Below, piece by piece: positions 45,337 to 61,096 of a DNA stretch of 61,096 nt. The notes beneath the pieces are model-generated. The model had not been told where the DNA came from. It was given only the letters and a program-made list of their open reading frames with translations, and made no database searches. This DNA comes from Candidatus Altimarinota bacterium (GTDB lineage: Bacteria > Patescibacteriota > Gracilibacteria > BD1-5 > UBA2023). Both the position numbers and the translations under genes were made by a program. The stretch spans positions 1 to 61,096 of the forward strand of contig JAYVJC010000006.1 in NCBI GenBank assembly GCA_043769645.1, written 5' to 3'. Position 1 is the first letter of the stretch. Each line of letters opens with the position of its first letter.

Positions 45337-45450
45337 ACCATTTTATCAAAAAAATCCCCCAGAAAATGGGGTATTTTTTATTTCTTCTTTTTTGTCACCA
45401 TTTTTTCTTACAATCGTCTCTAGTTACAAGAACGTTCTCCAATACTATAT

Positions 45451-46013: not shown

Positions 46014-47219
46014 TTATCCCACTTCAAATAAAACTCCGAGTTCTTGCTTCGTATTCGACTTGAGGATTCCCTGTGAGATGACTCATTCTCCGAATCTGCT
46101 CTTGAGCTTCACGAGTACATCAGAAACCCGCGTATTCTTTATATGTATAGTATCAGCGATATCAAATACTGATAATTGCTTCGGTGTAAATGAAGCCAAC
46201 TCAGAGAAGGTGACTCAGGTGGTTCTATAGGTAACTCACTTCGAGTATAGTGAATGGAATATCCCTTTGAGTACGTCAATCATCCGAGACCGATCGACAT
46301 GGACTTCTCCCATATCCACTGCTCTATTTGCATAGGTAAATTCCTTCGTCCTCAGAAGTACTCCTATCACTCGTGCTCACTGTCGTTCAGCGAGCATCGT
46401 CTCGTAGGCACGCTCGAAATTCATGAGGATTTGTCCCCAGAGAAAACGAGCATCGTCTGATATCATATGATTGAATGACCTCGTACATGCAATACTCTTT
46501 CTTTTCTTACTCGTGTCATGAGGCACCCAAGAGTCGACTCCGTGGAGTTCCAACCAGAGGTTGCTCCCATTCCTTCCGAGGATCTTACTGACATCCATCC
46601 CCTCCATCGAGTAGAAGTCATATACTGTCTTGATACTCACTCAGAGTCTCGCACTATTTCTGCGGGCGATATAGGGGATTTCTGTGACTGGAAGGGTCCG
46701 AAAGAGGTCTTCTATATCCGGTGTGTGGAAATCCACATAGGATCAGAAGGGTTTATTGAGATCTCCGAACATCTTCGCTCGGAGTCGAGTATTCGATATA
46801 CCTATTGATACGGGAATCCCGATATCGTGGTAGATTTCTTCCTTTAGCGACTCGGCGAAGTTATCATACCTTCCGGGAATATGGGTGAGTTCTACAAAGA
46901 GCTCATCGATCGAAAACACTTCTATATTGCCAAGTTTATCCGTGAGATATTTCATCAGTCTTTCAGAGACTTGTCGATACCAGGCATGGTCGGGGAGTCT
47001 CACAATGAGTTTTTTTCAGAGCATTCTTCGAGCTTCCCAGAGGGGAGTACCGACCCGGATTCCGAGCTTCTTGCACTCATAGCTCGCGGCGATAACGATT
47101 TGATCTCCTACCGCTACAAATTTCCCCTTGAGAGATGGATCTCTCAGGACTTCACACGACGCATAAAAACTATTGCAATCGATATGTGCATATATATGCC
47201 TTGAGGTATGAAAAATCAT
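46014..47219 (-). CDS. dinB: Y-family DNA polymerase (DinB/UmuC-like)
   Basis: Starts HIDCNSFYASCEVLRDPSLKGKFVAV, then ...SIDELFVEL... and ...VSIGISNTRLRAKM... Track ORFs 47016.., 46743.. and 46377.. are joined by TGA and continue to TAA 46014 (1206 nt). The ATG lies 2 nt after the lexA stop. Confidence 0.85.
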
Positions 47220-47221
47220 AG

Positions 47222-47803
47222 TTAACGATACTTACGCACAGAACCTGAGACAACTCAGAGGATTTCACACGGTCAATCAACTATTATTGGTGGATATTTT
47301 GGATTGGCAGGTATGAGTTTCAGTATATCTCCCTTTTTCTCGAAATATTTGAGTGTGACCTTACCATCGAGGGAGGCGATGACGATATCACCGTTGTTTG
47401 GATGGCGAGATCGATCGAGGATGACGATATCTCCCTCATGTATTCCCGCATCTTCCATGCTATCTCCCTTCACCTTCACGAAATAGGTACTGGCTGGATG
47501 TTCGATAAGATACTTCTCGAGGTCCATCTGAGTCGTCGGTTGTGTCTCGGGGGTAAAGGGCAGTCCTGCCCGTACTGACTCAAAGAGAGGATATCCTATC
47601 AGTAAATTCGAAGGTATATAGCTCTTATCTACCATTTCAAGCATACCATTTTCTAGGAGCTTCTGAAAGAATCTCCGTACTCAGGCAGCGTTCGCATACC
47701 TGAGAAGCTTACCCATCTGATCGAAGGATTGATACACTCATCCAGTACGAAAAAAATCACGAAGCGTATCGAGTTTTTTTGTGTAGTTTACATCTGGTCG
47801 CAT
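47222..47803 (-). CDS. lexA: LexA repressor (wHTH + S24 peptidase)
   Basis: Contains VRAG-LPF (Ala-Gly cleavage site), KGDSM (Ser nucleophile) and a downstream Lys in ...GKVTLKYF... The N-terminal wHTH-like region is reached through two TGA codons. 582 nt. Confidence 0.85.
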
Positions 47804-47829
47804 AGTTTGTATATATTTATATACAAACT
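47804..47829. promoter_or_regulatory. perfect 12-2-12 palindrome abutting the lexA start codon (candidate LexA operator)
   Basis: AGTTTGTATATA-TT-TATATACAAACT lies immediately 5' of the lexA ATG on the coding strand. Confidence 0.5.
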
Positions 47830-47833
47830 ATAT

Positions 47834-48019
47834 CTATATTGTGGTGAAAGTAAAGAAAATCGACTGAGAATTTTTGGTCGCTGACTCCTCTCCGTACATC
47901 GTGATATCTCCGGAATCTTCACCGAGAATATTTGACTTCGGACAGAGATCCATATAATTAGAGGCATGAAACCAGAAACTACTCTCATCCAAAAGCAAGA
48001 TGCGGGACTCCTTGCTCAT
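47834..48019 (-). CDS. small hypothetical protein upstream of lexA
   Basis: ATG at 48019 and TAG at 47834; 61 aa (MSKESRILLLDESSFWFHASNYMDL...). It is co-directional with lexA. It competes with a plus-strand reading frame that starts at the same CATG. Confidence 0.3.
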   Translation of the reverse strand: MSKESRILLLDESSFWFHASNYMDLCPKSNILGEDSGDITMYGEESATKNSQSIFFTFTTI

Positions 48020-48046
48020 GGCGTCGCCCCGTATGCACGCGTATAG

Positions 48047-48295
48047 CAAAACGCCCAGGATGGTGTCGCTAATATCCTTGGATTCAAGTCTTCAGGGAAT
48101 TTCGCAGCTACCGTAACTGGTGTCGGACTTGTCTCTCTCGCGGTTGCCGGAATTCTTGCTCCTCTACTCGCAGTTCCCCTGATGGGTGCGGCTACAGCAG
48201 TCACTACAGCAGGAATCGGATGACTGATAGAAAATGATATAACTAAACGTATTGCCAAATCTGACGAACCGAGAATCCGAACGTACAAAGTCTAA
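48047..48295 (+). other. Gly/Ala-rich transmembrane-like reading frame without a usable start codon (gene remnant, frameshifted gene or unusual start)
   Basis: Frame 2 reads ...NILGFKSSGNFAATVTGVGLVSLAVAGILAPLLAVPLMGAATAVTTAGIG-G(TGA)-LIENDITKRIAK...YKV* and ends 1 nt before a plus-oriented terminator. The only in-frame ATG is at 48182, and a TAG at 48044 closes the frame upstream. Confidence 0.25.
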
Positions 48296-48319
48296 TCCTC
48301 CTCGATGGGGGATTTTTTT
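48294..48319 (+). terminator. rho-independent terminator
   Basis: aatcctcc-tcgat-gggggatt followed by tttttt. Confidence 0.65.
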
Positions 48320-48722
48320 GGAGTAGGAATATTTTGAAAAAAATCGACTATGTTATGAATAGGGTGAAAATGAAAGAAACTATTTGAGTTTTTTGAGCCC
48401 TCGAAATGACTTTATAAGAAAAGTATCAGAAAATTATCGAACTCATCAAAGACCTTTACTGTGAGCCTACACTATGGGGGATGATGAAATAAGAGGTGTA
48501 CTATTACTTAGTACAATTATCAAACTCAAAATTGACGATGAAAAAAGGCTCTACATAAAGCAAAAAGAGCCCTTTCAGGCTCTCTCAGAGTGTATTTTTA
48601 CTTATGGCAGTACCGCAAGGATGCCTATCGGACTATTTTAATGAGATTTATTGAGACAATTAAGGGAGTAGATATGAAGGAAATAGAGAAACTACATTCT
48701 CTTTGTAAAAAGAAAATGTAAC

Positions 48723-48881
48723 CTATGCTACTATCTTGATAAAAAAATAATTTCTTGGTAATGATTTTTTTAGTCTTGCCCTAGTAGTAGGATCAGTCTC
48801 AGTTTTGAGAAGTTCTATCTTTTTCTTATAGTCTATTTCCGAGACTATGATGTTGTCTATGAGTTGATCGCGTTCTGTCAT
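48723..48881 (-). CDS. small phage hypothetical protein (52 aa)
   Basis: Its ATG overlaps the amidase stop (TAATG). It is the last gene of the lysis cassette. Confidence 0.3.
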   Translation of the reverse strand: MTERDQLIDNIIVSEIDYKKKIELLKTETDPTTRARLKKSLPRNYFFIKIVA

Positions 48882-49429
48882 TATTGTGCTTTAGGAGTAA
48901 GTTTTGATTGATAGTCATGCCAGCTTGTATATCCTTTTTCCCAGAAAGATTTTGCTATGTCTACTTTCCGAGTTTTACTCACACCATCCCATAACTGTTT
49001 TTTTTGGCTTCCTTGCCACGTGAGATCCGCGTGACGAAGTACGTTCTCCTTTGGAATGTTGAACACGGCCATCAGGTGTTCTATGAGTCTTTTGACCTCG
49101 AACCGTTGAGCATCCGTGAAGTCAGGTCAAATAGTCTCTATTCAGAGTGAGTGAAAGTTGAGTCCAGTGATACTTCACCAGTTACTCTGTCCAGCGTGCC
49201 AGCATACCATTTTTGGATCTGCGAGCTTGTATGAGGATCCATCACCGTCTACTATGAAGTGACACGATACTTCACTGGTCTTTGTGAGTCCGAGAAGGGT
49301 CTTGAGGTTCCCTCCGAGTGTACCTTGTACCGTCCCGGTATGGTGAACAATGATATAGTCGCATGTATTCTCTATTCACTTTGTGAAGTTCTTTTGCTGT
49401 GCGGATAAGTCTTGTTTGAATGGATACAT
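48881..49429 (-). CDS. N-acetylmuramoyl-L-alanine amidase (Amidase_2/PGRP-type endolysin)
   Basis: Contains DYIIVHHTG, CHFIVDGDG, CWHAGQSNW-G(TGA) and NFHSL-G(TGA)-IE. It joins track ORF 48881..49072 to upstream codons through 4 TGA. 549 nt. Confidence 0.8.
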
Positions 49430-49430
49430 A

Positions 49431-49631
49431 TTATGGGTAGTTATGTTCGTTGGCTTTTACGAGATCGAGCTCTTTGCGGATATCATGAATCTCGAAGAGG
49501 AGTCCATCGAGGATACATTTCATCGCTTTACGTTCTGTATCAGATACGACTTGAGAAGCCATAAAGACTTTATCGTATCGATGTTGGAAATGGAGGAGAT
49601 CAGCTTCGAGGAGTGATTTTCGGAGTAACAT
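49431..49631 (-). CDS. phage hypothetical protein (66 aa)
   Basis: Intact track ORF, packed between neighbouring genes. Confidence 0.45.
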   Translation of the reverse strand: MLLRKSLLEADLLHFQHRYDKVFMASQVVSDTERKAMKCILDGLLFEIHDIRKELDLVKANEHNYP

Positions 49632-49635
49632 AGGA

Positions 49636-49818
49636 TTATCTTAGGAAGTTATACCCGGCGAATACTTGGCCTGGTTCGAGTTGCCGGGCCTCGTCATCGT
49701 CTACATGTTTCCGCTCTGCCCTTTCGAGTACTTGCGTTGCCCGTTCCTCTGTCTGAGCCTTGAGAAAGCTCGCGACGTGTTTCGGGATTGTTCAATCTTC
49801 GTATTCGAGTGTTTCCAT
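49636..49818 (-). CDS. phage hypothetical protein (60 aa)
   Basis: ATG at 49818, one TGA, TAA at 49636; 183 nt. Confidence 0.4.
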
Positions 49819-49822
49819 AGGT

Positions 49823-50206
49823 TTAATGGTAATTGAAGTAATCTTTTCCACCGATCCGAACTGCGTAGTAGAATATGAGAGCTAGGAGGGTGTATTTTAT
49901 TACCGATATCCCTACCGCATTTTCTATATCTTCGATTATCCTTTTGAAGAACCCCATATCGCATTCTTTCCGTCTCGCCTCGTCACCGCCCTGCCAGTAG
50001 GTAAAATCGTGAATATTACAGTCCGCTTGCCAGAATACGAGTCTTAGGCGCTTGAGGCTTTGCAATATGATCCACCGTATGAGCCTGTTCTTTACTTGAG
50101 TTCCAGTACCACCGCACCCATTACATACCCCATTGACTCTGAGAAATTCCCACTCCCATTTCGTGAGGCTTTTATAGTCTCGAGATTTGAAGTCCTGAAG
50201 TGTCAT
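49823..50206 (-). CDS. phage protein with prokaryotic phospholipase A2-like motif, putative
   Basis: Intact 127-aa ORF. NGCGGTG is followed by CNIHDFTYWQGGD...CDMGFFKRI, which resembles the C-x-x-HD-F-x-Y active site of bacterial and viral PLA2 domains. Confidence 0.4.
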   Translation of the reverse strand: MTLQDFKSRDYKSLTKWEWEFLRVNGVCNGCGGTGTQVKNRLIRWIILQSLKRLRLVFWQADCNIHDFTYWQGGDEARRKECDMGFFKRIIEDIENAVGISVIKYTLLALIFYYAVRIGGKDYFNYH

Positions 50207-50520
50207 TATTTAGTAATACGTGTAAGGATTTCCTCGAGTTGCTTTGATTGATTCTCGAGCTTTTTAGAGTGTCATTCGTGCCAATTATTCGAGGTTTGGA
50301 TCTGAGTGATAAAGGTATCTGATATCTTCTTGAGTTCTTCTCGAAAGAATTGATTTTGTTCAAAGGAAATTGTTTTGAAGTTCGTAAGTACCTCTTCGAA
50401 TTTCAGAGCCATATAAGGGATGCCTTTGAACATAAACCCAAAGAACGTTCCTACAAATAAGAGTCCTATTATTCAGTTCTGTGAGAGTAGTTGAGATGCG
50501 ATATGGTCTATTGATTCCAT
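50206..50520 (-). CDS. holin-like single-TM phage protein
   Basis: ATG at 50520 with two TGA codons. TM helix IIGLLFVGTFFGFMFKGI followed by a charged coiled tail. Its stop overlaps the next ATG (TAATG). Confidence 0.4.
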
Positions 50521-50548
50521 TATTGATTAAGTGGTTAGTTATAAGTAT

Positions 50549-51349
50549 TTATAAAAAAGACAAAAAAGAAGTATTAGCAGATGATGCTGTCGATGAAACC
50601 ATAGTAAATGTACCAGAAGAAGTAAAAGTATGTATAGTCTGTCATCAACTTGAGGTTATGGTTCCTCAAGTTGAAGTAGGAGACACTCCATCACTTCAAT
50701 TAGTAGCGTAAGAAATAATAACTATTCCTGATCATCCTGTTCCTCCAGTTCAAGCATTAGCACCTCACCCTCATCATCCAAGTCAATTTGTACCATTTCC
50801 TGCGGTTCAAAAGTTTGCAGCTCATGTACCTCAACCTCAAGTTCCTCAAGCCCCTCCTCCACCGTTTCCTCACCCTCACCCTCATCCTCAATAAGTCACC
50901 GCACTTCCACTAATAGAGTAACTTATCCCATTTCCTCAAGCACTTCATACGTTAGTTCCAGGTGTCGAAGACGCTGATCACGCACCTCATCATCCTGCTC
51001 CACTTCACGAACCTGTATTTCAGTTCGCTCCAGCGTTTCATTGTCCTCCAGTTCATGAAGCTCCTGTGGAAACACTTCACCATCCTCATCCTCATCCAGA
51101 TCATCCAGTTTGAGCGGAAAAAGCTGAATCAGAACCTCACCTTCATCACCCTATTGCGGTAAGTGAAGAGAATACAGAGTTAGTCCCACTTACGTGTGGT
51201 ATTCCTCAAGTTCCCACGGTTATAGAGTAGGATTGTGGAGTTACTGTAATTGAAGCTGAGTATAAAACTCCTCATGCTCCACCTCATCCAGGAGCTGAAT
51301 CCCCTCCTCATCCTCATCCCGCGACTACCAATGCTTTTACTGTTGCCAT
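50549..51349 (-). CDS. glycine-rich phage protein (tail-fibre-associated glycine-rich domain type), 266 aa with 40 TGA codons
   Basis: All 267 in-frame triplets were checked: no TAA or TAG before 50549, and 40 TGA codons. Starts MATVKALVVAGGGGGGDSAPGGGGAGGVLY, continues ...ITVTPQSYSITVGTGG..., and ends ...GTGGSGIVIISY... No minus-strand ORF is reported here by the standard track. Confidence 0.75.
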
Positions 51350-51350
51350 A

Positions 51351-51869
51351 TTATATATTTTGTCAAATAATATATCCTTGATAGATTCAGGCAGAAGTAC
51401 AAATAAAGCCAAAAGTATCTATTTTACTAGCTGTTGTGGTAAGAGTTGGCACAGTACCTCACACCCACTTAATAGTATTAAACCAGGTTACTGTTCGACT
51501 TCCAGTAGCATCTTGTATAAGGTCTATTACTATCTTGTCTCAAGGTAATATATTGTTTAATGCCAGAATTCTATTCCCCCCAAGAGTTACTCGATGGTAG
51601 TCTCATACATTCTTGTCAAACGTTATAGTTGCCCCGTCAGTATCTGTTACTATAGCACCCTTGATACTCGCAATTATTGGAGTAGTAAGTGTTTTATTCG
51701 TTAGAGTTACTGCTCACGTAGTAGTTACATAAATAGTATCAAAAACCCCTTTGAAGAGGTTATATATTCCTTGCCACGTCGTACTTCCAGCAACTCCACC
51801 TTGAGAAGCTGGAACTACGTCAGTTAATGCAGGAGTTGTGATGGTTGGTAGATTTGGAATTGTTGGCAT
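51351..51869 (-). CDS. phage fibre/receptor-binding-like structural protein (hypothetical)
   Basis: ATG at 51869 with 6 TGA codons; TAA at 51351, frame checked. Thr/Gly-rich beta-type sequence. It lies 1 nt upstream of the glycine-rich gene. Confidence 0.55.
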
Positions 51870-51874
51870 CTTTC

Positions 51875-52285
51875 TTAGAGGTTATCAGATACAGTCAAAG
51901 TGATCGTGACATTTCCTGTGGTATATGCAGTGATTTTAAACCCGATCCACCTGAGAATTGTCTGACGAGTATTGATCATATATTGCTTTGTTCCATCACT
52001 CGCACCAGAGTATACAAGACCTGTAGTTCCATTGAGAGTCGTGTTTGAATCTAGATCGATGATCTGCACAGGTGCATACTGATTTGTAGCAGATGATGCT
52101 ATAGTAAAGTCTGGCTTTGTTTCCTGAACTGATCCTAGAACCTGGACGGTAAGATTAGCAGAACCTGCTGCAGTTATTGCAAAGACTCCATTGATATAAT
52201 CTTGAAGTTGTATTGTTTTTCCACCAATGAGACCGAGTGTAGAAGCTGTCGAGAATGCGGTTGTTTGTACTTGTTTGACGGACAT
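51875..52285 (-). CDS. phage structural hypothetical protein (136 aa)
   Basis: Intact track ORF with a beta-rich Thr/Ser/Gly composition, downstream of the capsid gene. Confidence 0.5.
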   Translation of the reverse strand: MSVKQVQTTAFSTASTLGLIGGKTIQLQDYINGVFAITAAGSANLTVQVLGSVQETKPDFTIASSATNQYAPVQIIDLDSNTTLNGTTGLVYSGASDGTKQYMINTRQTILRWIGFKITAYTTGNVTITLTVSDNL

Positions 52286-52347
52286 ATGTGTATTTGTTAG
52301 AAAATTATTTCCTTCCTCCCCTCTCGAAAGAGGAGATAGGAAACAAC

Positions 52348-52758
52348 TTATATTGCGTTAGCAGTAGAGTTGGTATCAAACTGGATGAACTTACACGTCA
52401 CAGTCGCTACACCCGCACCTGTACAGGCACCAACAGTAGAAGATATGGAGATAAATTTTGTTCCAGCAGGGACAGTGACTTTTGAGCCTTTTACTGTAGC
52501 AGTCCTGAGATCTACTACAGCATTTGCACCGAGTCCAGATATGACAGTCGAGTAGAAGATCACACCATCTGCCTTGAGCTGAAGGTTTGTTCCTGTAGCA
52601 AGACCTGTGGCATCTGTACGGACAACGACCTCATCAAGGAGGAGACCGTTACCGATACACTGGATGATGTTGGTATCAGAAGTCAGGATGGCAGATGATG
52701 TAACATCTTTCTGCACCTGGAATGTACCGAATCCAGTTGAATTTGGAATTGTAGCCAT
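52348..52758 (-). CDS. phage structural hypothetical protein (136 aa)
   Basis: Intact track ORF. It is followed by the hairpin cctct-cgaa-agagg (52320..52333) in the 62-nt gap. Confidence 0.5.
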   Translation of the reverse strand: MATIPNSTGFGTFQVQKDVTSSAILTSDTNIIQCIGNGLLLDEVVVRTDATGLATGTNLQLKADGVIFYSTVISGLGANAVVDLRTATVKGSKVTVPAGTKFISISSTVGACTGAGVATVTCKFIQFDTNSTANAI

Positions 52759-52777
52759 GGGATTGAAAGATTAGAGA

Positions 52778-53785
52778 TTAAACACCTGTACCGTTTGAGA
52801 ACTTGACCCAACGACCTGATACAACAGCCATGATGATAGATGCGTGAGCACCGAATCTCCAGTTTTCTGTTGAAAAGTCTTCACCGTTATTTCCTTCGGT
52901 AGGAGTCTTGAGATATGGAGCCTCAGCAACACCAAATTGAAGTTGAGAGTTTGCGCTTGAAGCGATTCCCCAATATTTTGCCTTGGTAGTATCTGGAGCA
53001 CCAGTTGCAGTAGTAGCGACGAGAGGAAGAATGACGTGAGTCATACCGCCCTTATAGACGTTGTAGGCACCAGCATTTTGAGATGTTGGATTTGCAGTAG
53101 AGTTGAGAAGCTCTTGAACCTGATTGATCGTGTTGCGGTCATCAGTTGTCCAGATAATATCAAACTTCATAGTGAGCTTGAGACCGATATTGTTATAGGT
53201 CTGCTCAACTGCAACCTTTTGAGCTGCTTCGAGTGCACCCTTAGAGAAGAGTGGATTTGAAGGGATGATGTTTGAGTAAGTCGTAGACGAACCAGTGAGG
53301 GCGTGAGACGTAGAAGCGAGAGCGACGTTGTCACCAGTCGTGATATCGACGAGCTTTCCTTCTTGGGTTGTATAAGAAGTAGAGTATGCGAAACCAAAGC
53401 GGTGAGAGAGGTCGAGCTCCATACGAGCTGTACACACTTGAGAGAGATCAGTGAGTTTCTGAACGACATCAGCGTTTTTGTTGAACTTTCGTTCCTCAAC
53501 GGTGATGGCGATTTCGAGACCGATACGGTAGATAGACGCTGCCTTTTCAAGACCGTATTGAACGACTGATTGAGCAGTATTATCACCTTCATCCTTGATA
53601 CGAGCATAGATGTCGCGATCAGGAAGTTCGGCAAAGATTCGACTTTGTCCTGTTCCGAGTGGAACTGGAACGTTTTTCACGAGACCTGATTTCATGAAGT
53701 TTTGATCCACGGTGTCAGGTCATGCGACGAATACGCGATTGACCACATCAGTGAGTTGTGGCATCGTAATGGTAGAGAGTTGCAT
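52778..53785 (-). CDS. major capsid protein, putative
   Basis: 335 aa. Track ORF 52778..53710 is extended through one TGA to ATG 53785. The call rests on its size and its position after the scaffold-like and small head genes and before the fibre genes. I did not verify the fold. Confidence 0.6.
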
Positions 53786-53811
53786 ATGTATTTGTATTTA
53801 TAGAATTAAAA

Positions 53812-54309
53812 TTATGCTGTGACAATGTTCGGCATCGCAAATGTACCAATTCCACGAGTCGTAGAGATGAATCCACCATTCGGAGAGATGATAAATTGGT
53901 TACCATTCGTTGCGACTGCGACACCTGTAGCTGATGCAAGCGCACACGTGCGTCCTTGCTGTGCAGCTGAGTGTGTACCAGAACCAACGGTGAAGTAACA
54001 GCGAGATACACCTGGAGTTTTTGGCACCCAAACTGATTTCATTTTTCCAGCTGTTGCATAGTCTGCATCAGTAGAAGCGATTGGTTCAGCGAGAATACCT
54101 GCAAAGTTTTGACCGTTTGCAAAGGTCGTAGTTGCTGCAGTGACATACCCTGTTGGGTTTGAAGCGGTTACTTCAGTCATTACTGCAGAACCATCAGCGA
54201 TAACAACAGAGGCTTTCATAGGCATTTGCTTGAGAAGCCATTCTCCCTCCATAGGGTAGAAGTTTTGCGTTTTGTTCGCTCGGTTGAGAGGAGTGATTAC
54301 GGTAGGCAT
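53812..54309 (-). CDS. phage head-associated hypothetical protein (possible decoration protein)
   Basis: Intact 165-aa ORF immediately upstream of the capsid gene. Confidence 0.4.
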   Translation of the reverse strand: MPTVITPLNRANKTQNFYPMEGEWLLKQMPMKASVVIADGSAVMTEVTASNPTGYVTAATTTFANGQNFAGILAEPIASTDADYATAGKMKSVWVPKTPGVSRCYFTVGSGTHSAAQQGRTCALASATGVAVATNGNQFIISPNGGFISTTRGIGTFAMPNIVTA

Positions 54310-54339
54310 ATTTGTATATGTATAAAGAAATAATTGGGA

Positions 54340-54726
54340 CTATTCACCAAGGACTCTGCGGAAATCAGAGAGACGAACACGAGAAGCTTTTATCTCAGCA
54401 GGCTCATCACCTGTCATGCCAAATGCGGTTGCATACGCATCCATTTCTTTGTTCTTTATGGATTGAGCCAGCTTTCGGCTGATCATGTCCATGCGGAAGA
54501 ATTCTACATCGTGAGACTCGCATATAGATATGAGGTCTTGGACGATATGGAACTCGATGAGATCTGAGTACGCAGAAGGATCGAGAGACTCTTCTGTTTG
54601 GTTGTATGAGAGGTTTTTATCTGTGAAGATTGCTTCTGTACCGTCTTCGAATGAGACGAGAGAGCTTGGTATTTTTTGACCATCCAGAGGAGTGATCGTT
54701 TTTATTTGTTTGTCTCCGATGAACAT
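54340..54726 (-). CDS. phage hypothetical protein (128 aa)
   Basis: Intact track ORF ending in TAG. Confidence 0.45.
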   Translation of the reverse strand: MFIGDKQIKTITPLDGQKIPSSLVSFEDGTEAIFTDKNLSYNQTEESLDPSAYSDLIEFHIVQDLISICESHDVEFFRMDMISRKLAQSIKNKEMDAYATAFGMTGDEPAEIKASRVRLSDFRRVLGE

Positions 54727-54737
54727 AGGGTGATTGA

Positions 54738-55271
54738 TTAGTTGATATAAAGTTCAGGAACCTCGAACTCTCCGTGAGGAGTATTTTTGAACGTCCAGAA
54801 TTTGTGATTCTTCATGATCTTTTCCACTCCCTTATTGTTAAATGTGAGTGTGTCCATTCGGACATCGTTGATCTCGTGAAGCTCAAACCCTTCTGACCAT
54901 TCAAGAAGTTGCGTATAGAGGTCGTAGTCGACTTTCTCAGTTTCTCAGTCACTGAATGTGAGGAGGACTTCGTGCAGGTTGATATACTTATTCGTGACAT
55001 TATTTTTGACAGTCTGCATTGCGACAGTTTCCACTTTCACAATAGGTTTTCCGTTGTAGATTTTGTAGCGAAACGACCAGAGTGGTCATGCGTATTTCTC
55101 CTTGCTTTTTGTATTGGTATTGATGGTTCCGTTTTCCTTGAGTTCTTGATTCTCTTTTTCGAGTTTTGCAAGTCTTTCAAGGATTTGTGCTTGGAAGTCG
55201 TCTTTTTTAGGGACTCCAGGCGTATTTTCCTGACTATTTGTTTGTGTAGTTGTTGGGTTTTGCTTAGCCAT
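54738..55271 (-). CDS. phage hypothetical protein (177 aa)
   Basis: Track ORF 55086..55271 continues through TGA at 55086 and 54945 to TAA 54738, checked codon by codon. The N-terminal part is a coiled-coil. Confidence 0.5.
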
Positions 55272-55279
55272 ATATGATA

Positions 55280-55999
55280 TTATTTCTTAGAATATAAATG
55301 TCAGAGTCAGAGAGATTCAGCGAGTTCTTTCCCGCTATTTTTATCGTCTGGCGCTGGCTGTGAACTTCATCGACCGAGAGAAGCTGTTGATCCGAACATT
55401 GCAATGTTGAGATCGGCTTTTCCTGATACGATTTGTTCTTTCTGAGCGTAGAGAGTTGCCATTTCTGCAAATTCACGAGCTTCAATTGGAGCAAGGTCAC
55501 GTCATTCTGTGAGTTTCTTATACAGTCACTCGGCAGTTGTTCTCACTTCACCTGTGAGGTGAGTAAAAAACTCTGAAGCTTCTTTGTGAACACCTTCGTT
55601 GGCGAGCTCTCTTTTCAGTCGTTCTGCGAACTTCTTATATTGAGTCTCTTCGTCGAGAGGGTTCTCGTCCTTCTTGGAAGCTGGAGCAAGTTTGATTTGA
55701 TCGAGCGCTTTTTCGAGCGTGAGATTCCATCATTTCTTTGCTACATCTTTTGCGAGATCTGGGTCTTTTTCGCTTAGCTCTAAGAGATAAGCATTATCCT
55801 GTGAGACTTTTTCGACAGCGACATCAAGTGCCTTGTCATATCGAGCCTTGTAGGCGATAGCTTCTTGAGTACTTCCAGCATATTGTTGCTTGAGGCGCTC
55901 ATGGGCTGCGGCTAAGTCATCGTTTTTTTGAGACTGCGATCAGTCTTGAGGGTTGTCCGCGTTCGGAGCCTCCTTTTTTTCCTCTTGGTTGTCCAACAT
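55280..55999 (-). CDS. scaffolding-like phage protein (239 aa, helical and charged)
   Basis: ATG at 55999 with 7 TGA codons; TAA at 55280; 720 nt. The sequence is highly charged with predicted helices, and it lies between the portal and capsid genes. Confidence 0.5.
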
Positions 56000-56102
56000 A
56001 GGGGCAAGGGGTTAGTATGTAATAAGCTGTCCCATTTGGGAGGTAGCTATAAGTGAAGCGTACTTCGTGTCTTCTTACATCAAGAAAAAAAACTATTTTT
56101 CC

Positions 56103-56399
56103 TTATTTTTTGTGGTTTTTCTCCAACTCTTCGTACTTCTTGACCTGCTCTTCCATATCAGAGAGCTCATTTGCAAAGCCTTCTATTGCATTGATGAGCC
56201 AATAGGCTGGAGTTTCATTTCATTGGAAATTTCATGATCCGAGTTGTGCTCGGACTCCATCGATTTTGATTTGAAAGTACTTTTTGAGGATGTCTTTTCC
56301 CTTGATAAGAAACTCGGCTTCATCTTTGCTGATCGTGTGATCCTTTTCGATCTTGAGAGTTTTGAAGGCATCAGCGGAGAGAATATAGAATTGAGACAT
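56103..56399 (-). CDS. phage hypothetical protein (98 aa)
   Basis: ATG at 56399 with two TGA codons; TAA at 56103. It starts 3 nt after the portal stop. Confidence 0.45.
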
Positions 56400-56402
56400 A
56401 GA

Positions 56403-58358
56403 TTATTGGGTTACAGAAGTAGTATTGGTCGGAGCTTGTTCTTGTTGTGTCGGTACTCATTGCGCTGGTGGTTGTGGTGCTTGTGTAGGGGCTCATCCAG
56501 CTGGTGGCATTCCTGACATTCCACCACCCTGATCCTCACCACCCATTGCTTGAGCTTGGATATCAGCGATGAGTTGTTGTTTTGCTTGGTTCACTTCCTC
56601 TGGATCATCTCATGATGTTTGAGTATCGATGTCGAATAGTCTTGCGAGTTCTTTGATCGTTGACTTCTCTGGGATGATAGAGTCGAGATTTGGGATACTT
56701 GCATACGCATTCCCCACGGTGACGAGACGAGTGAAGAAGTCGAGCTTCTGTTCTTTCTCCACTTCATTGATCGTTGGAGCATTGAGGTTCGTAAAAATAT
56801 TCATACAGATCTTTCCACGGATGAAATCTGGCTTCACTTCGAGAAGTCCTGACTTTGGAGATTTGCTGAACTTTCCTTTCACATATTTCTCTCACTTCAG
56901 AGGAATGGTTGGATATGTCGGAGCAATATCTTCTTTCGGTTTGTTGTCGTTATCCACTTCGATGAGTTCTCGAACGAGCTTGATAGGAAAGAAGAGTTGG
57001 AGATTGTCCTTGTGGAGATTTCCCAGTCGGACGAATGCAGAGTCTCTATTGGTGAGAACTACATTCACACGTTGGAGAGAGCTTTCCTTCTGTACTGCGG
57101 TTTGATATGCAGTCTGTTGAGGATTCCCCATGATATTTCGGATGTCGATACCTGTATAGATAGCAATATCCGTGAAGATCGACTCCATGTAGTTGAAGAT
57201 GGCTTGATTCGGAGGATTTCCAGAGAGTTGGTTGAAATTCCCATTTCCTAGATTTCCCTTGAACTTGAGCATCTGGTTTCCATAGGCGAATTGGTTTCCA
57301 TCGAACTCAAGGTTTCCACCGATTGCAATGACCTGATTATTGCTTCGCTTGATAGCATCCATGAGCATCTCGCGAAGGTTGTTGAGGTCGCTCTTGAATG
57401 TCATAAGGATCTCACAGAGTCCTCGTCCATAGACAGAGAATGGATTCTTTGAGTATTGACGGATAACGAATGGGAGAGACTTCGAAGCATTGAGGATTGG
57501 ATGTTCTCGGATAATGACAGCATCATTTGCCACCTCGGCATACATATCTGCCTGACAGTCCCAGTAGTGAGTGATTTTCACATACTTTCCGCTCGATTCT
57601 CCTCGTTCTTCCTTGGTGACGAACTGGCGAGTATCTGCGTTGTAGATGTAACTTCCAACGATAGCGTCGGTGTTCTTGTAGACTTTGTTGAACTTGTAGT
57701 TTCGGAACTCTTCTTCTGGGATGTATTCGATAAAAACACAATCCACAGCATCCTCGATACTCTTGGCTTTATCATCGACGAAGAAGTTTCTGATATCCAC
57801 ATTCTCGAGGAGAATACGATTGGTGTTCTGCATCTTGCGAGTGAATGTGACATCTCCATTCTCGGAGATGGTTGGCTCATTGATGACGCGATATTTCATC
57901 TCGAATCCTGTATAGAGAACAGAAGTTCCGAAAATAGCGGTCACATATTCATTCTCGAGGACTGCGGAGTCTCGATTGTTCGTAGACCAGTCATAGTCCC
58001 ACACCTTTTCGAATGCTTCGGCTTGCTTTGAATAGTTCGAGTTTTCTTCCTCTATTTTGAATTGTGTCTTGCGCTTCACTGCCTCAGCAACGAAGAGCTC
58101 GACGATTGCCATCTCGAGAGGAACTTGAGAGCGTGATCGTCCATCCTCGTATGGAACATATATTGCGTCCCACATTTTTTGGTAGAGATCCCAGTACTTA
58201 TCGACTGCGGTTCGTTTGGCACGCATTGTCGTGAGTCGTCGTCCAATATGTCCCACGAGTTTCGATTCTCGATCATCATTTTGATGAGGATCTGTGATGA
58301 ATGGTTCGAGAACATCGAGCGTATTCTTTTTTGTATCTATAGTGATTTGTCCGTCCAT
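56403..58358 (-). CDS. portal protein, putative (651 aa)
   Basis: Track ORF 56892..58358 ends at a TGA and continues in frame through ORF 56610..56882 to TAA 56403 (1956 nt). The call rests on its size and its position directly after the large terminase. The C-terminal tail is Gln/Pro/Gly-rich. Confidence 0.65.
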
Positions 58359-58370
58359 ATTTGTATAGGG

Positions 58371-59972
58371 TTAAATATATTTGTATTCCATCTCTCAAGT
58401 GAGAGGGTTGGCTATCTGAACCTTGGTCTTTTCTTTCTCCTTCGGAACTCACCATTTTGCGAGGTAGTTCACGAGGTATTCGAATGCGGTTCGTCCGTGG
58501 GAGAATTGGTCGTGTTCGACTCTCGGATTGTCCTTTGTGATGAATTTGTCACCCATCTGGATTCCTTCGAGCTTCGAGTTCATAAGACAGTTGACGAGAT
58601 CGATAGTCTTTTCATTAAATCGACACCTGTAGAGATTTGCTTTTGTAGTTCGTATCTGTTCTTGCTTATCGAGGGTGATATCCGTGTTGAGGAATATCTT
58701 GTTGTCCTGGTAGTACTCGAAGATGGTTTTGTCAGCTCTCTCTGATGGTTTCGAGTGAGTGTCGTATGGATCTGCGATGTACTGGTGCGGTTTCTTGTAG
58801 CGAAGGTATCTCATATAGAACTCCAGTACTGCTCACTCCATAGGATTCTTGGGTTGTTTTCCGAGGAATGCAGCACACTCTTCTGGGATGATGGGGATTT
58901 CGATATAGTCGATGAAGTTCCAGTAGTGTCCTTGTACCTGCATCACGATGATGGCGTTTGGATCGACTCAAACGTGTGAGTTGTCTATTCCGATATAGAG
59001 AGGAAGACTCTCATCATATTCGAATACTTCGATCTTCCCTGTGATCTCTGGGTAGACTCGTCACTCGACCGAGGCGTTGTAGTCGATATCCAGTTCTTGT
59101 GCGATTTTCTGTGGTGGATCTTTCTTCTTCTGCGCTTCATACCATTCCTGTGTATAAAAAGGATGTTCTGACCAGTGGATTCGATGCCATCGGAATATCC
59201 CTTTCTCTGCCTTTGTCTTCATAAGGTAATATTCATTCCCCATCCCTGCTGGGGTAGAGTTGAATATTCGGCACGGTGTCGCACGAGAACAGGCAGTGTT
59301 CACGCTCGAAGCATTCGCCATACTTGCCATCTCATCAAGAAATATTGCATTATATGTTCCTCATCGTCCTGCATTCGGATTTGCTGATTCCCCTTGTATA
59401 GATCATGAACCATCTCATCTGGAGATATTCATACTCTTGTTGAACTCTGTTCCTGTATTCTTGTTGAATCATTTTGGAAGGAGCCACGGAGGAAGATTGC
59501 GCATCATGAATCGGAGCTTCTCGAAGTGTGATCGCATATCTCCAGCCTTGTCTACGTCAGACTCTTTCTGAGAGAGTGTGAGATACTTGTGATTGTGAAA
59601 GAGGTATCCATAAAGAAATACACCAAGTATGAGCCATGTGAGACCCATTTGACGTGATTTTTCGATGAATACATCGGTCGGGATAGGAACACCTTCTTCA
59701 TTGAATCGTGAAGTGATTGGAAGTGCTCCTGTTTGAATTGCATCCCAAAGATCAACAATAAATCCCCTTTGAAAATCAAAGAGAATGAAAGGAACTTCGT
59801 TCGGATATTCTGAACCATAAAAACCACCGTTTCGATCGGTGAAAAGAAAGTAATCAAAGAAAAATGTGATATCTCGTCGACACTGCTCGTAAACATAAGC
59901 GCGAAAGGTGGAATCTTTGCACTTATCCAGGAGTTTTGCTCTCGCTTCTATGTTCTGTCGATACGTTTGCAT
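58371..59972 (-). CDS. terminase large subunit
   Basis: 533 aa with 9 in-frame TGA codons joining track ORFs 59469.., 59061.. and 58449.., with all junctions translated. Contains ...GESANPNAGR-G(TGA)-GTYNAIFLDEMA... (ATPase Walker-B-like) and a C-terminal nuclease-like half. Confidence 0.8.
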
Positions 59973-60020
59973 AGTTTTATGCTATTTCATATCTTCTTAC
60001 ATCAAGTTTTTGGACTTATT

Positions 60021-60064
60021 TAGAACTTTTCTTGGATAAAAATAGAACTTTTCTTGGATAAAAT
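60021..60064. repeat. 22-bp tandem direct repeat x2
   Basis: tagaacttttcttggataaaaa / tagaacttttcttggataaaat. Confidence 0.85.
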
Positions 60065-60152
60065 GAGAATATTTGGGAAAGTTCGTGTATGTGACGTGTA
60101 GGTATACCAATTTCTATATAAATGTATCCCAATAGGATATATACACGAACTG

Positions 60153-60184
60153 GTGAGAATTAAGTGAGAATTAAGTGAGAATAG
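60153..60184. repeat. 11-bp tandem repeat x3 (gtgagaattaa)
   Basis: gtgagaattaa gtgagaattaa gtgagaatag. It is flanked by copies of the 10-mer ATACACGAAC at 60141..60150 and 60218..60227, plus an inverted copy at 60081..60090. Confidence 0.85.
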
Positions 60185-60359
60185 TTCGCGTGCCTTCTGG
60201 TTATATCAATATGGCACATACACGAACTCGATGTTTATAAATGTTGAGAGAAAGTTTATCAACTATTTATAAACTTTTTATTTGGCTTTGTAATACCGAG
60301 AGTTAAAGGAAATTAAAAAAAGTCTTGACTTGCTCTTGTTGTAAGAAGACAACAATTAT

Positions 60360-60487
60360 AGTAGAAAGTACATCCGCCAGTTGTGGCTTCTTCTCTTTGC
60401 TTGGTGATACTTATAGAGAGAAGGTCACAACATAAAGGCAGAGTATAAATCCCCCCTAAGTATCACTCCGCAAGGATAGGGGGGATT
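60360..60487 (+). ncRNA. candidate small phage transcript (promoter-like element to strong terminator)
   Basis: TTGACT (60325) and TTGTTGTAAGAAGA (60336..60349) with TATAGT (60356) lie upstream. There is no ORF, and it ends in a perfect 10-bp hairpin. Purely structural inference. Confidence 0.25.
60449..60487 (+). terminator. strong hairpin / terminator
   Basis: atccccccta-agtatcactccgcaagga-taggggggat followed by ttt. Confidence 0.6.
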
Positions 60488-60868
60488 TTATAATTCGAAC
60501 TCTCACGAGATATGCTATAAGGACTGCACGATCTGACTTATAGAACAACATCTAGCCACCGAATACAAATAATGCTAGCCCCCACCTGCCGACCGCTCCT
60601 CCTGAAAAGGAATGTAAAGTCAACTCTCAACCGCCACCAACTTTATTAAGATTGGGAAGGAGTCGTATAAATTACGAAATGGTACTAGTAACAAACAAAT
60701 AGTTTGCGAAGAAAGCTATCGAGCATATCTCTGGAGGGGATGATAGGGGAGGTGTATCTAGACATCCCCCGGCTCGGTTAGCCTCCTTTCTTAGGAATAT
60801 ATTTATAACCGAAATAAGATGAAAATTATATCACAACGATATGTAAAAACTTAAATTCTTCTAAAGCT

Positions 60869-61093
60869 ATGAAAAAACCAAAGAAAATCTTTATGATAAA
60901 TCGTGATCGAGCGTTAGAAATAATGTGGTATATGGATGCTTTATATGATGAATATAAGAAATTGAGCTATGAAATGTTAAGTGATAAAGTATCATATGCA
61001 GAATGGCAGATCACAAATATGTACTTTCTAGCAGGATATAGAGCTAATAAAGTAATTGAAAAACTCAAAGAAAGTAAAAATACTCTATTTTAA
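60869..61093 (+). CDS. phage hypothetical protein (74 aa)
   Basis: Intact track ORF on the opposite strand to the structural module, after about 0.9 kb of non-coding DNA. Confidence 0.45.
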   Translation: MKKPKKIFMINRDRALEIMWYMDALYDEYKKLSYEMLSDKVSYAEWQITNMYFLAGYRANKVIEKLKESKNTLF

Positions 61094-61096
61094 AAA

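What the first reader, a model, noticed from the sequence alone, without database searches (positions are those of the whole stretch)
48723..61096. Phage/prophage module that itself depends on the TGA=Gly code
A compact block of minus-strand genes encodes a large terminase (9 TGA), portal (4 TGA), scaffold-like protein (7 TGA) and capsid (1 TGA). It also encodes fibre-like proteins, a holin-like protein, a PLA2-like protein and an amidase endolysin (4 TGA). Several TGA codons sit in conserved positions, for example terminase ...NAGR-TGA-GTYNAIFLDE and amidase ...WHAGQSNW-TGA. The portal only reaches full length (651 aa) by reading through the TGA at 56892. The element therefore cannot be expressed in a standard-code host and must have co-evolved with a code-25 bacterium. 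No tape-measure, tail-tube or integrase gene is visible within about 12 kb. It could be a small podovirus-like phage, a satellite/GTA-like element, or a prophage whose remaining modules lie beyond the window. Several of its genes (portal, capsid, decoration-like, the 136-aa gene) have TACAAAT or ACAAATA directly in front of the ATG instead of a Shine-Dalgarno sequence.
Basis: partly seen in the sequence, partly recalled or inferred. Interest (0 to 1): 0.7.

Follow-up and report, generated by a model that had tools for sequence, protein, structure and literature searches.

The report
Late-gene block of a TGA=glycine phage
The block is a real set of phage genes for DNA packaging, head, fibre and cell lysis that only makes sense if TGA is read as glycine, next to the chromosome of a bacterium using the same code; such phages are already known, and it is not settled that this one is truly integrated.

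Summary
Window 48,723-59,972 (minus strand) is one leftward operon of 17-18 genes. It encodes a large terminase, an SU10-type portal, a scaffold-like protein, an HK97-fold capsid protein, fibre-like proteins, a glycine-rich protein (40 TGA) and a lysis cassette ending in an Amidase_2 endolysin. It holds 77 in-frame TGA codons.

TGA means glycine, not tryptophan or stop. In six relatives, window TGA codons align with GGN 44 times, TGA 32 times and Trp 0 times. Pfam hits weaken or vanish when TGA is read as Trp.

The block belongs to a large, metagenome-only phage family with genomes of about 40-47 kb, all using sense TGA at GC contents of 25-51%. In several relatives, four or five large tail or ejection genes sit directly upstream of the terminase gene. 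These, and any replication or integration genes, are absent here, so 12 kb is not a whole phage.

A 17-nt promoter-like motif ties the last 1 kb of the contig to the phage, so the element runs off the contig end.

Integration is plausible but unproven. There is no integrase or att site. No other family member lies on a contig longer than 48 kb, and independent assemblies break at the junction.

Code-25 phages and prophages are already published (Borges 2021, Liu 2023), so this is a new member of a known kind.

The parts
58371..59972 (-). Large terminase subunit (TerL), 533 aa, 9 in-frame TGA. The first TGA is at codon 168, before the Walker B ...AIFLDE motif.
   Evidence: phrog_2 at 9.7e-21 and phrog_5989 at 6.5e-17. 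Pfam Terminase_6N scores 21.4 bits, cut-off 22. It is 81% identical to the L003 orthologue and 44-55% to five others. Codon 204 is TGA in all seven.
56403..58358 (-). Portal protein, 651 aa, 4 TGA (codons 489, 583, 622, 634).
   Evidence: PF23899 SU10_portal at 33.2 bits, above the cut-off of 30. phrog_1216. 166 homologues were found, of about 640 aa among the 120 listed, many on 40-47 kb contigs.
56103..56399 (-). Conserved 98-aa protein between the portal and scaffold genes (2 TGA). Function unknown.
   Evidence: Orthologues sit in the same position in L003, L005, L006 and L007.
55280..55999 (-). Scaffold-like protein, 239 aa, 7 TGA. The assignment rests on position and on its charged, helical composition.
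   Evidence: No profile hit. Conserved in five relatives at 27-68% identity. Preceded by the promoter-like motif at 56068-56084.
53812..55271 (-). Three conserved small head or neck genes: p177 (54738-55271), p128 (54340-54726) and p165 (53812-54309). Functions unknown.
   Evidence: No Pfam or PHROG hits. Orthologues occur in the same order in L003, L005, L006, L007 and L008.
52778..53785 (-). Major capsid protein with the HK97 fold, 335 aa, 1 TGA (codon 22).
   Evidence: AlphaFold2 model with pLDDT 83.4 and pTM 0.80. Foldseek gave 355 PDB hits at E<=1e-3, all capsids or encapsulins. The best viral match has TM 0.80. 461 homologues were found.
51875..52758 (-). Two 136-aa conserved virion-module proteins: p136a (52348-52758) and p136b (51875-52285). 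Functions unknown.
   Evidence: Orthologues lie downstream of the capsid gene in L003, L005, L006, L007 and L008.
51351..51869 (-). Fibre-like protein p172 (6 TGA).
   Evidence: Its C-terminal 80-90 aa match tail-fibre and tail-assembly PHROGs: phrog_5596 at 1e-10, phrog_19976 at 6e-8 and phrog_9017 at 1.5e-6. Its N-terminus matches the L003 333-aa fibre.
50549..51349 (-). Glycine-rich domain protein, 266 aa. Of its 92 Gly codons, 40 are TGA.
   Evidence: PF21722 Gly_rich_2 at 4.5e-12. phrog_2295 at 1e-44. The hit disappears if TGA is read as Trp. Homologous Gly-rich genes carry 49-80 TGA in L007 and L006.
49431..50520 (-). Lysis-cassette small genes. They are a one-helix holin-like protein (50206-50520, 2 TGA), a PLA2-like protein (49823-50206), a 60-aa ORF (49636-49818, 1 TGA) and p66 (49431-49631).
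   Evidence: The assignment rests on their position between the fibre genes and the endolysin. PLA2-like: PF08398 at only 13.3 bits, cut-off 23.9, plus phrog_6098 at 2.4e-5. The L003 gene at this position carries PF05105 Phage_holin_4_1.
48881..49429 (-). N-acetylmuramoyl-L-alanine amidase endolysin, 182 aa, 4 TGA.
   Evidence: PF01510 at 1.5e-20. 15 lysis PHROGs. 63% identical to the L003 amidase.
48723..48881 (-). Last small ORF of the operon (52 aa). No homologue in the relatives.
   Evidence: ORF listing. Called as a gene on Logan contig L002.
48563..48586 (-). Intrinsic terminator ending the leftward late operon. It lies in the 37-nt gap between the two independent Logan contigs.
   Evidence: 10-bp stem followed by a T run, the best terminator found in the region. 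The Logan host contig ends at 48563 and the module contig starts at 48601.
59990..60006 (-). Promoter-like 17-mer CTTGATGTAAGAAGATA upstream of terL. A second copy lies at 56068-56084 (-), upstream of the scaffold gene.
   Evidence: The motif occurs exactly three times in 61 kb, against 0.04 expected. The terL copy is conserved in L003.
60335..60351 (+). Third copy of the same 17-mer, pointing rightward. It links the contig's last 1 kb to the phage.
60021..60228 (.). Repeat-rich non-coding region upstream of terL. It holds a 22-mer x2 (60021-60063), an 11-mer x2.7 (60153-60182), and ATACACGAACT x3 (60080-, 60141+, 60218+). It could be an operator, pac or origin region.
   Evidence: Homology to L003 stops at 60058, inside the 22-mer repeat.
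60363..60495 (+). Strongly structured 133-nt stretch just after the rightward promoter-like motif. It folds into two hairpins, the second with a U tail. It could be a small RNA or a leader/attenuator.
   Evidence: MFE -50.4 kcal/mol, z = -5.5, and 0 of 200 shuffles fold as well. No Rfam family reaches its threshold.
60870..61094 (+). 74-aa ORF at the contig end, transcribed away from the late operon.
   Evidence: Its single homologue (64% identical, in L010, also with in-frame TGA) is followed by an HTH_3 Cro/CI-type regulator gene.

Best explanation
Window 48.6-61.1 kb is the late-gene part of a tailed phage (Caudoviricetes) that uses TGA as a glycine codon, like the bacterium whose chromosome fills the first 48.6 kb of the contig.

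Shown:
- One leftward operon runs from a promoter-like motif upstream of terL to an intrinsic terminator at 48,563-48,586.
- It encodes the packaging ATPase-nuclease, an SU10-type portal, a scaffold-like protein, an HK97-fold capsid protein, small conserved head or neck proteins, receptor-binding fibre and Gly-rich proteins, and a lysis cassette ending in an amidase.
- Its 77 sense TGA codons sit at Gly positions.
- No tRNA gene lies in the window.

Inferred:
- Translation depends on the host's tRNA-Gly(UCA) and on UGA not being read as a stop.
- The element is part of a roughly 40-kb phage. Its tail or ejection, replication and regulatory genes lie beyond the contig end at 61,096.
- It is joined to the chromosome as a prophage, with the lysis end next to the attachment junction near 48.6 kb. 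The prophage is present in only part of the host population.
For: Phage identity and code:
- Hallmark genes are confirmed.
- The host uses code 25. GltX reads PSPT-TGA-YLHIG-TGA, and prepilins use TGA for the Gly just before the FTIVE/FSIL motif, which I take from my own knowledge to be the conserved prepilin cleavage-site glycine. DnaA, DnaB, GltX and PPK2 show that this part is chromosome.
- Window TGA codons align with GGN 44 times, TGA 32 times and Trp 0 times. Over all columns containing a TGA, the other sequences have Gly 291 times and Trp 3 times.
- The Trp control loses the Gly_rich_2 and Terminase_6N hits and lowers Amidase_2 and GltX scores.

Family:
- It is a 40-47 kb phage family.
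- Relatives L003-L008 and a 45.5-kb IMG/VR genome all use sense TGA.

Extension beyond the block:
- The 17-nt promoter-like motif occurs only at 56068(-), 59990(-) and 60335(+).
- The homologue of the right-flank ORF is next to a Cro/CI-type HTH gene.

Host match and linkage:
- Codon usage of the module correlates with the host part (r = 0.75) far better than with distant relatives (0.06-0.14). TGA makes up 16-24% of Gly codons in the module and 23% in the host.
- The layout, with the lysis module and a terminator at the junction facing a host-side terminator, is typical of prophage ends.
- The closest relative, L003, has oppositely oriented DnaD- and DnaC-like genes.
- Code-25 prophages are documented in these phyla (PMC10746230).
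- The same host strain (100% identical) occurs in three sequencing runs. Exact module proteins are on record in only one of them. This fits a polymorphic insertion.
Against: - No integrase, att repeat or tRNA target was found in the window.
- Among the 120 best portal and 120 best capsid homologues, no contig exceeds 47.8 kb except this one. So no other member is seen embedded in host DNA.
- The one 45.5-kb relative read almost end to end is transcribed in one direction, and no integrase-sized or integrase-like ORF was apparent on reading its 43.9 kb of ORF translations by eye. Its early genes were not run against any profile library.
- The only hit in species-representative genomes is on a phage-sized contig.
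- In L003, L005 and L007 the tail or ejection genes abut terL. Here homology stops 86 nt upstream of terL.
- In an independent assembly of SRR22198278 the host contig ends at 48,563 and the module contig begins at 48,601. The junction is therefore a branch or gap there.
- A 13.5-kb contig of the same strain from SRR23617290 should reach 50,323 if collinear. Yet it carries none of three module proteins on record.
Confidence: 0.55

Rival explanations
1. Assembly join, not integration. The block belongs to a free, probably virulent, code-25 phage of about 42 kb that co-occurs with the bacterium. It was linked to the host contig through a short shared sequence or a graph ambiguity near the terminator hairpin at 48.56-48.60 kb.
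For: - No family member other than this contig lies on a contig longer than 48 kb.
- In the near-complete relative no integrase was apparent on reading its ORFs by eye (not profile-searched), and it is transcribed in one direction.
- Logan contigs of the same run break at 48,563/48,601 and at 60,034-60,050.
- The same host strain in SRR23617290 and SRR22198277 shows no exact module proteins on record.
- No att site or integrase was found.
Against: - A join needs a shared k-mer between host and phage. That is itself what an attP/attB core would give.
- The contig crosses both break points without ambiguity (window sequence).
- Module codon usage and TGA usage match this host.
- The phage part stops after 12.5 kb instead of running through a whole genome.
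- Prophages are common in these phyla (PMC10746230).
Confidence: 0.22
2. Truncated or domesticated element. Only the packaging, head, fibre and lysis cassette (about 11.5 kb plus a regulatory region) was retained in the chromosome, without tail or ejection and replication genes. It would be either a decaying prophage remnant or a co-opted capsid and lysis cassette, in the manner of a GTA or a capsid-forming satellite.
For: - Homology to complete relatives is confined to 48,884-59,981.
- The four or five large genes that precede terL in L003, L005 and L007 are missing, and homology ends 86 nt upstream of terL.
- No replication or integration genes are in the window.
- All retained genes are full length relative to L003: 533, 651, 98, 239, 177, 335 and 136 aa.
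Against: - Intact ORFs are equally expected for a live phage.
- The phage-type promoter motif and structured region continue to the contig end, so the element is not bounded at 60,058.
- There is no conservation in related genomes, as a domesticated element would show. The p165 cluster at 90% identity has one member.
- L008 and L009 show that some family members also lack large genes directly upstream of terL. That arrangement alone therefore does not prove truncation.
Confidence: 0.18
3. The code is TGA=Trp (code 4), or the TGA codons are real stops in a pseudogenised standard-code prophage.
For: Public gene callers translated these contigs with code 4, giving W at TGA in P0001 and P0121.
Against: - Trp aligns 0 of 96 times with window TGA codons, against Gly 44 times.
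- The Gly-rich protein has 40 TGA codons, and its Pfam hit exists only with Gly.
- Invariant glycines of GltX are TGA, as are the glycines before the prepilin FTIVE/FSIL motif.
- Reading frames continue and stay conserved past every TGA.
Confidence: 0.01

Closest known systems
Code-25 phages and prophages of Absconditabacteria (SR1) and Gracilibacteria (Borges et al. 2021 preprint, 10.1101/2021.08.26.457843; Liu et al. 2023, PMC10746230)
   Same: It has phage hallmark genes with dense in-frame TGA that only give full-length proteins under TGA=Gly. The host uses the same code. No suppressor tRNA is needed from the phage. Prophage regions have been reported next to code-25 chromosomes.
   Different: Only 10 of 17 genes here carry TGA, against about 90% of genes reported for code-25 phages. 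No integrase or tail gene is visible. Whether this family is among the published sets was not tested. The host phylum was not determined.
Escherichia phage SU10 (Kuravirus), source of the portal family PF23899
   Same: The portal matches the SU10_portal profile above its curated cut-off. The SU10 capsid is among the HK97-fold structural matches (7z46, rank 30). No tube or tape-measure genes are present, which fits a short tail.
   Different: There is no detectable sequence match to any GenBank phage by tblastn with the portal, nor to any PDB chain by sequence. Family genomes are about 40-47 kb. Gene order and tail genes are unrelated by profile search. The genetic code differs.
Stop-codon-recoded gut phages (Lak, crAss-like; codes 4 and 15)
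   Same: A stop codon is used as a sense codon in structural and lysis genes.
   Different: By the published account, those phages infect standard-code hosts. They often carry suppressor tRNAs and are thought to use recoding to time late genes. Here phage and host share the code, TGA means Gly, and the five tRNAs of relative L003 include none that reads UGA.
Gene transfer agents (RcGTA type) and capsid-forming phage-inducible chromosomal islands
   Same: It is a chromosomal cluster with terminase, portal and capsid genes but no replication genes in view.
   Different: It is not conserved in related genomes. It carries its own fibre and lysis genes. Close relatives are complete 40-47 kb phage genomes. 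No integrase or primase-replicase of the island type was found.

Membership tests
Tailed dsDNA phage (Caudoviricetes) morphogenesis module | Large terminase with ATPase and nuclease domains | tested here: met
   phrog_2 at 9.7e-21. Pfam Terminase_6N is borderline at 21.4 against 22 bits.
Tailed dsDNA phage (Caudoviricetes) morphogenesis module | Portal protein | tested here: met
   PF23899 at 33.2 bits, above the cut-off of 30.
Tailed dsDNA phage (Caudoviricetes) morphogenesis module | HK97-fold major capsid protein | tested here: met
   Model with pLDDT 83. 355 PDB and 257 BFVD matches at E<=1e-3, all capsid-type.
Tailed dsDNA phage (Caudoviricetes) morphogenesis module | Tail genes (adaptor, nozzle or tube, ejection proteins) | tested here: not met
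   None were recognised in the window. The large genes that precede terL in L003, L005 and L007 have no counterpart in the window.
Code-25 (TGA=Gly) phage | Genes are full length only if TGA is sense | tested here: met
   77 TGA codons in 17 genes. The longest TGA-free stretch of each protein (segments between TGA codons) sums to 2198 of 3567 residues. The portal is cut at 488 aa by a standard-code caller.
Code-25 (TGA=Gly) phage | TGA corresponds to Gly, not Trp | tested here: met
   44 GGN, 32 TGA and 0 Trp at window TGA columns. Trp control.
Code-25 (TGA=Gly) phage | Host uses code 25 (Gracilibacteria or Absconditabacteria) | tested here: inconclusive
   The adjacent chromosome uses TGA at the GltX glycines PSPT-G-YLHIG-G and at the glycine before the prepilin FTIVE/FSIL motif. 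The phylum was not determined, because no taxonomy was returned.
Integrated prophage | Phage DNA contiguous with host chromosome | tested here: inconclusive
   It is contiguous in the 61-kb contig. But an independent assembly breaks at 48,563/48,601, and another run's contig of the same strain lacks module proteins on record.
Integrated prophage | Integrase and flanking att direct repeats | tested here: not met
   No recombinase hit. No flanking direct repeat. The other end of the element is outside the contig.
Gene transfer agent | Cluster conserved in synteny across related host genomes | tested here: not met
   One hit among 185,579 species-representative genomes, on a 43.7-kb contig.
Kuravirus / SU10-like phages | Sequence relatedness of core genes to SU10-group genomes | tested here: not met
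   Only a portal profile match. tblastn of the portal against 50,697 GenBank phage records found nothing.

The most novel reading that the evidence does not exclude
The block is not part of a complete phage. It would be a self-contained packaging, head, fibre and lysis cassette kept by a code-25 candidate-phyla-radiation bacterium after loss of tail, ejection and replication genes. That would make it a domesticated particle-forming or lysis element (GTA-like or satellite-like), the first of its kind in this group.
Probability: 0.08. Interest if true: 0.7.

Novelty: new member of a known kind. Interest (0 to 1): 0.35.

Why it matters
It is a clean, internally controlled example of phage and host sharing the TGA=Gly code. 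One gene spends 40 TGA codons on a glycine-rich domain. One terminase TGA is conserved across a family that spans 25-51% GC, so the whole lineage has evolved inside code-25 hosts.

It also flags a large phage family of 40-47 kb genomes. The family is absent from GenBank phage records and is mistranslated (TGA as Trp or stop) by public gene callers.

If the junction is real, it gives an integration site and a host assignment for that family. If it is not, it is a caution about calling prophages at contig ends.

Tried and rejected
- Extending the contig failed. The window is the whole 61,096-bp contig, and a Logan contig ends one base past the same point.
- Fetching the tail of the SRR23617290 contig, or the host-side junction contig, failed. 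Host genes near the junction all contain TGA, and only table-11 products may be looked up. Look-ups of p55, p66 and the PLA2-like protein returned only the SRR22198278 module contig.
- An exact-pattern scan of JGI metagenomes for the host side of the junction found nothing.
- UmuC relatives lie on contigs too short to show an empty site.
- No att repeats were found between the flanks. The one 15-nt inverted match (48589/61072) does not extend (and inspection).
- No Rfam family and no tRNA were found in the window.
- Sequence searches of PDB with the capsid protein and the portal profile found nothing.
- The idea that ACAAAT is a conserved translation or promoter signal was dropped because relatives lack it.
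- The idea that the LexA-like operator palindrome (47802-47831) shares a half-site with phage gene starts was not pursued. TATACAAA is enriched window-wide, largely through paralogous host genes.
- Taxonomy of the host could not be obtained.

Full report
**What is there**

Reading TAA and TAG as the only stops, window 48,723-59,972 is a tight minus-strand array of 17-18 genes. In order they are:
- TerL (58371-59972, 533 aa, 9 TGA)
- portal (56403-58358, 651 aa, 4 TGA)
- a 98-aa protein
- a scaffold-like protein (55280-55999, 7 TGA)
- three small proteins: p177, p128 and p165
- the capsid protein (52778-53785, 1 TGA)
- two 136-aa proteins
- a fibre-like protein (51351-51869, 6 TGA)
- a glycine-rich protein (50549-51349, 40 TGA)
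- a one-helix holin-like protein
- a PLA2-like protein
- two small ORFs
- an amidase (48881-49429, 4 TGA)
- a 52-aa ORF

The portal's first TGA is at 56892-56894, and a standard-code gene call ends there at 488 aa.

**Are the assignments right?**

- Terminase: phrog_2 at 9.7e-21. Pfam Terminase_6N is one bit under its cut-off.
- Portal: PF23899 SU10_portal is above its cut-off.
- Amidase: PF01510 at 1.5e-20.
- Gly-rich protein: PF21722 at 4.5e-12 and phrog_2295 at 1e-44.
- Fibre-like p172: it shares its C-terminal domain with tail-fibre PHROGs.
- Capsid protein: it had only a marginal profile hit. I therefore built an alignment of 42 homologues and predicted its structure (pLDDT 83). The model matches 355 solved capsid or encapsulin chains and 257 predicted viral capsids, so it has the HK97 fold.
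- 'PLA2-like' is only a sub-threshold hit (13.3 bits).
- 'Holin' and 'scaffold' are inferred from position.
- No tail-tube, tape-measure or integrase hit exists. The window has no tRNA and no Rfam match.

**The code**

The first 48.6 kb is cellular chromosome, with DnaA, DnaB, GltX and PPK2. It uses TGA at the GltX glycines PSPT-G-YLHIG-G and at the glycine that precedes the FTIVE/FSIL motif of three prepilins, which I take from my own knowledge to be the invariant cleavage-site glycine.

For the phage block I aligned ten genes with orthologues from six relatives. Window TGA codons face GGN 44 times, TGA 32 times and Trp never. Over all columns that contain a TGA, the non-TGA residues are Gly 291 times and Trp 3 times. 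TerL codon 204, in ...AGR-G-GTYNAIFLDE, is TGA in all seven genomes.

As a control I translated TGA as Trp. The Gly_rich_2 and Terminase_6N hits vanish, Amidase_2 drops from 74 to 67 bits, and GltX drops from 317 to 300 bits.

Under the standard code TerL would end at residue 167, before its Walker B motif. Only 2198 of 3567 residues would lie in the longest TGA-free stretch of each protein.

Stops are TAA (15) and TAG (2). TGA supplies 16-24% of Gly codons in the block and 23% in the host genes.

**The family**

The portal has 166 homologues, those listed being about 640 aa, and the capsid protein has 461. Among the listed ones, about a quarter sit on contigs of 40-47.8 kb and none on a longer contig, apart from this 61-kb one.

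The fetched relatives all carry dense sense TGA:
- L003: Logan contig of 41.8 kb, with 81-90% protein identity and 75% nucleotide identity over 8.3 kb
- L004
- L005, L011, L013 and L014: together one IMG/VR genome of 45.5 kb
- L006
- L007
- L008

Their GC content ranges from 25% to 51%. Their Gly-rich genes have up to 80 TGA codons. Public callers translated them with code 4, giving W at TGA.

The family has no tblastn match in 50,697 GenBank phage records. It has one match in 185,579 species-representative genomes, on a 43.7-kb contig binned as Dependentiae.

Gene order from terL through the portal, 98-aa protein, scaffold, three small genes and capsid to the 136-aa gene(s) is conserved.

In L003, L005 and L007, four or five large genes (up to 1691 aa) lie directly upstream of terL. 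One has a lytic-transglycosylase-like or CHAP-like region. L003 has a five-tRNA cluster (none reading UGA) and DnaD- and DnaC-like genes after its lysis genes.

The 45.5-kb IMG/VR genome, read for 43.9 kb, is transcribed in one direction. No integrase-like ORF was apparent on reading its ORF translations by eye; its early genes were not profile-searched.

**What the window lacks, and its edges**

Protein homology to relatives is confined to 48,884-59,981. Nucleotide homology to L003 ends at 60,058, which is 86 nt upstream of terL and inside a tandem 22-mer. So 12 kb is not a complete phage.

The right flank nevertheless belongs to the element. A 17-nt motif, CTTGWTGTAAGAAGAYA, has a TTGATG box, a 15-nt spacer and a TAnnnT box. 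It occurs three times in 61 kb against 0.04 expected. The copies are upstream of terL, upstream of the scaffold gene, and on the plus strand at 60,335.

The third copy is followed by a very stable two-hairpin, U-tailed structure (z = -5.5). Then comes a 74-aa ORF whose only homologue sits next to a Cro/CI-type HTH gene. Three ATACACGAACT sites and an 11-mer repeat lie between them.

On the left, the operon ends at a good terminator (48,563-48,586). This faces a plus-strand terminator at 48,294-48,314.

**Integrated or not?**

In favour:
- The contig is continuous.
- The end-of-prophage layout is typical.
- Codon usage is host-like: r = 0.75 with the host, against 0.06-0.14 with distant relatives.
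- Code-25 prophages have been published.

Against:
- There is no integrase or att site.
- No other family member is seen in host context.
- In the Logan assembly of SRR22198278 the host contig stops at 48,563 and the module contig (48,601-60,050) is separate.
- The same strain (100% identical) is present in SRR22198277 and SRR23617290. Yet p165, the PLA2-like protein, p66 and p55 are on record only in SRR22198278.
- A 13.5-kb SRR23617290 contig would reach 50,323 if collinear, but does not carry those proteins on record.

This pattern fits a prophage present in only part of the population. It also fits a graph join through a short shared sequence. I could not retrieve the sequences that would decide between these.

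I put about 0.55 on a genuine, polymorphic prophage that continues beyond the contig. I put about 0.2 each on an assembly join and on a truncated remnant.

**Upstream motifs**

ACAAAT lies immediately before the ATG of the portal, p165, capsid and p136b genes. That is 4 of 17 phage genes against 0 of 37 host genes. TACAAAT occurs 21 times against 11.4 expected window-wide. The motif is absent from the orthologous positions in relatives.

Neither host nor phage genes have Shine-Dalgarno sequences. Both show G-poor leaders with T at position -1.

**Comparison with what is known**

[quoted passage not shown]. Code-25 prophages in Gracilibacteria and Absconditabacteria were described by Liu et al.. 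This finding is therefore a new member of a known kind.

Three things are added here:
- codon-level proof of TGA=Gly in this block;
- placement of the block in a large 40-47 kb family with an SU10-type portal that is absent from reference phage collections;
- the caveat that its prophage status rests on a single contig junction.

Noticed in passing
window 60363-60495 (+): A 133-nt stretch just after a promoter-like motif folds into two hairpins, the second with a U tail (-50.4 kcal/mol, z = -5.5). It could be a small RNA or a leader/attenuator. The only Rfam hit is Phe_leader at E = 0.74, far below threshold.
   Followed up: partly
window 60021-60228: Dense repeats lie upstream of terL: a 22-mer x2, an 11-mer x2.7, and ATACACGAACT x3 (one inverted). 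They could be operator, pac or origin sites. One copy of the 22-mer element is conserved upstream of terL in L003.
   Followed up: partly
window 59973-60006 (-) and L003 8340-8398: In both genomes the TTGAT(G/A) box, 15-nt spacer and TAnnnT box end 6 nt before the terL ATG. This would give a leaderless or near-leaderless terL mRNA.
   Followed up: no
window 47802-47831: A perfect 14+14-nt palindrome (ATAGTTTGTATATA tt TATATACAAACTAT) overlaps the start of a LexA-like gene (wHTH + S24 peptidase, 47222-47803). That gene is followed by a UmuC-like Y-family polymerase gene (46014-47219). The palindrome is probably the gene's own operator. Whether this pair is host or mobile-element cargo is unknown.
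   Followed up: no
window 47966-48295 (+): A plus-strand reading frame with a membrane-like C-terminal half is interrupted by an in-frame TAG at 48044-48046. It is a possible pseudogene between the LexA-like gene and the phage block.
   Followed up: no
window 15762-22771 (-): Four tandem paralogous genes (504-686 aa, 34-49% identical, Cys-rich CxxC repeats). The 686-aa member tested (20711-22771) has no Pfam match at E<=1e-4.
   Followed up: partly
window 26519-29320 (+): A 933-aa ORF with 41 in-frame TGA codons and no Pfam match. It is the most TGA-rich host gene.
   Followed up: no
window 8426-11407 (+): In a run of pilin-like genes, three of the four (starts 8426, 9752, 10472; not 9079) encode the glycine just before the N-terminal FTIVE/FSIL motif (taken to be the prepilin cleavage site) with TGA.
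   Followed up: partly
L003 19593-20082: The closest relative carries five tRNA genes (Tyr, Pro, Gln, Leu-UAG, Leu-CAA) right after its amidase gene. None reads UGA, so this relative too must rely on the host for TGA=Gly.
   Followed up: yes
L007 8856-9739; L008 3120-3644: Reverse-strand ORFs are inserted between terL and the portal gene in two relatives. They look like homing-endonuclease-type insertions and are absent from the window.
   Followed up: no
window 45347-45361 and 48306-48320: A perfect 15-nt inverted repeat (CAAAAAAATCCCCCA / TGGGGGATTTTTTTG) brackets the 2.9-kb segment holding the sigma-70-like, UmuC-like and LexA-like genes. It may simply be two similar terminators.
   Followed up: no
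L034 and L036 (Ga0194052_1000006, 187,938 bp): A distant UmuC homologue (36% identical) occurs near both ends of one 188-kb metagenome contig, in opposite orientation. This suggests a long inverted terminal duplication or an assembly artefact.
   Followed up: no
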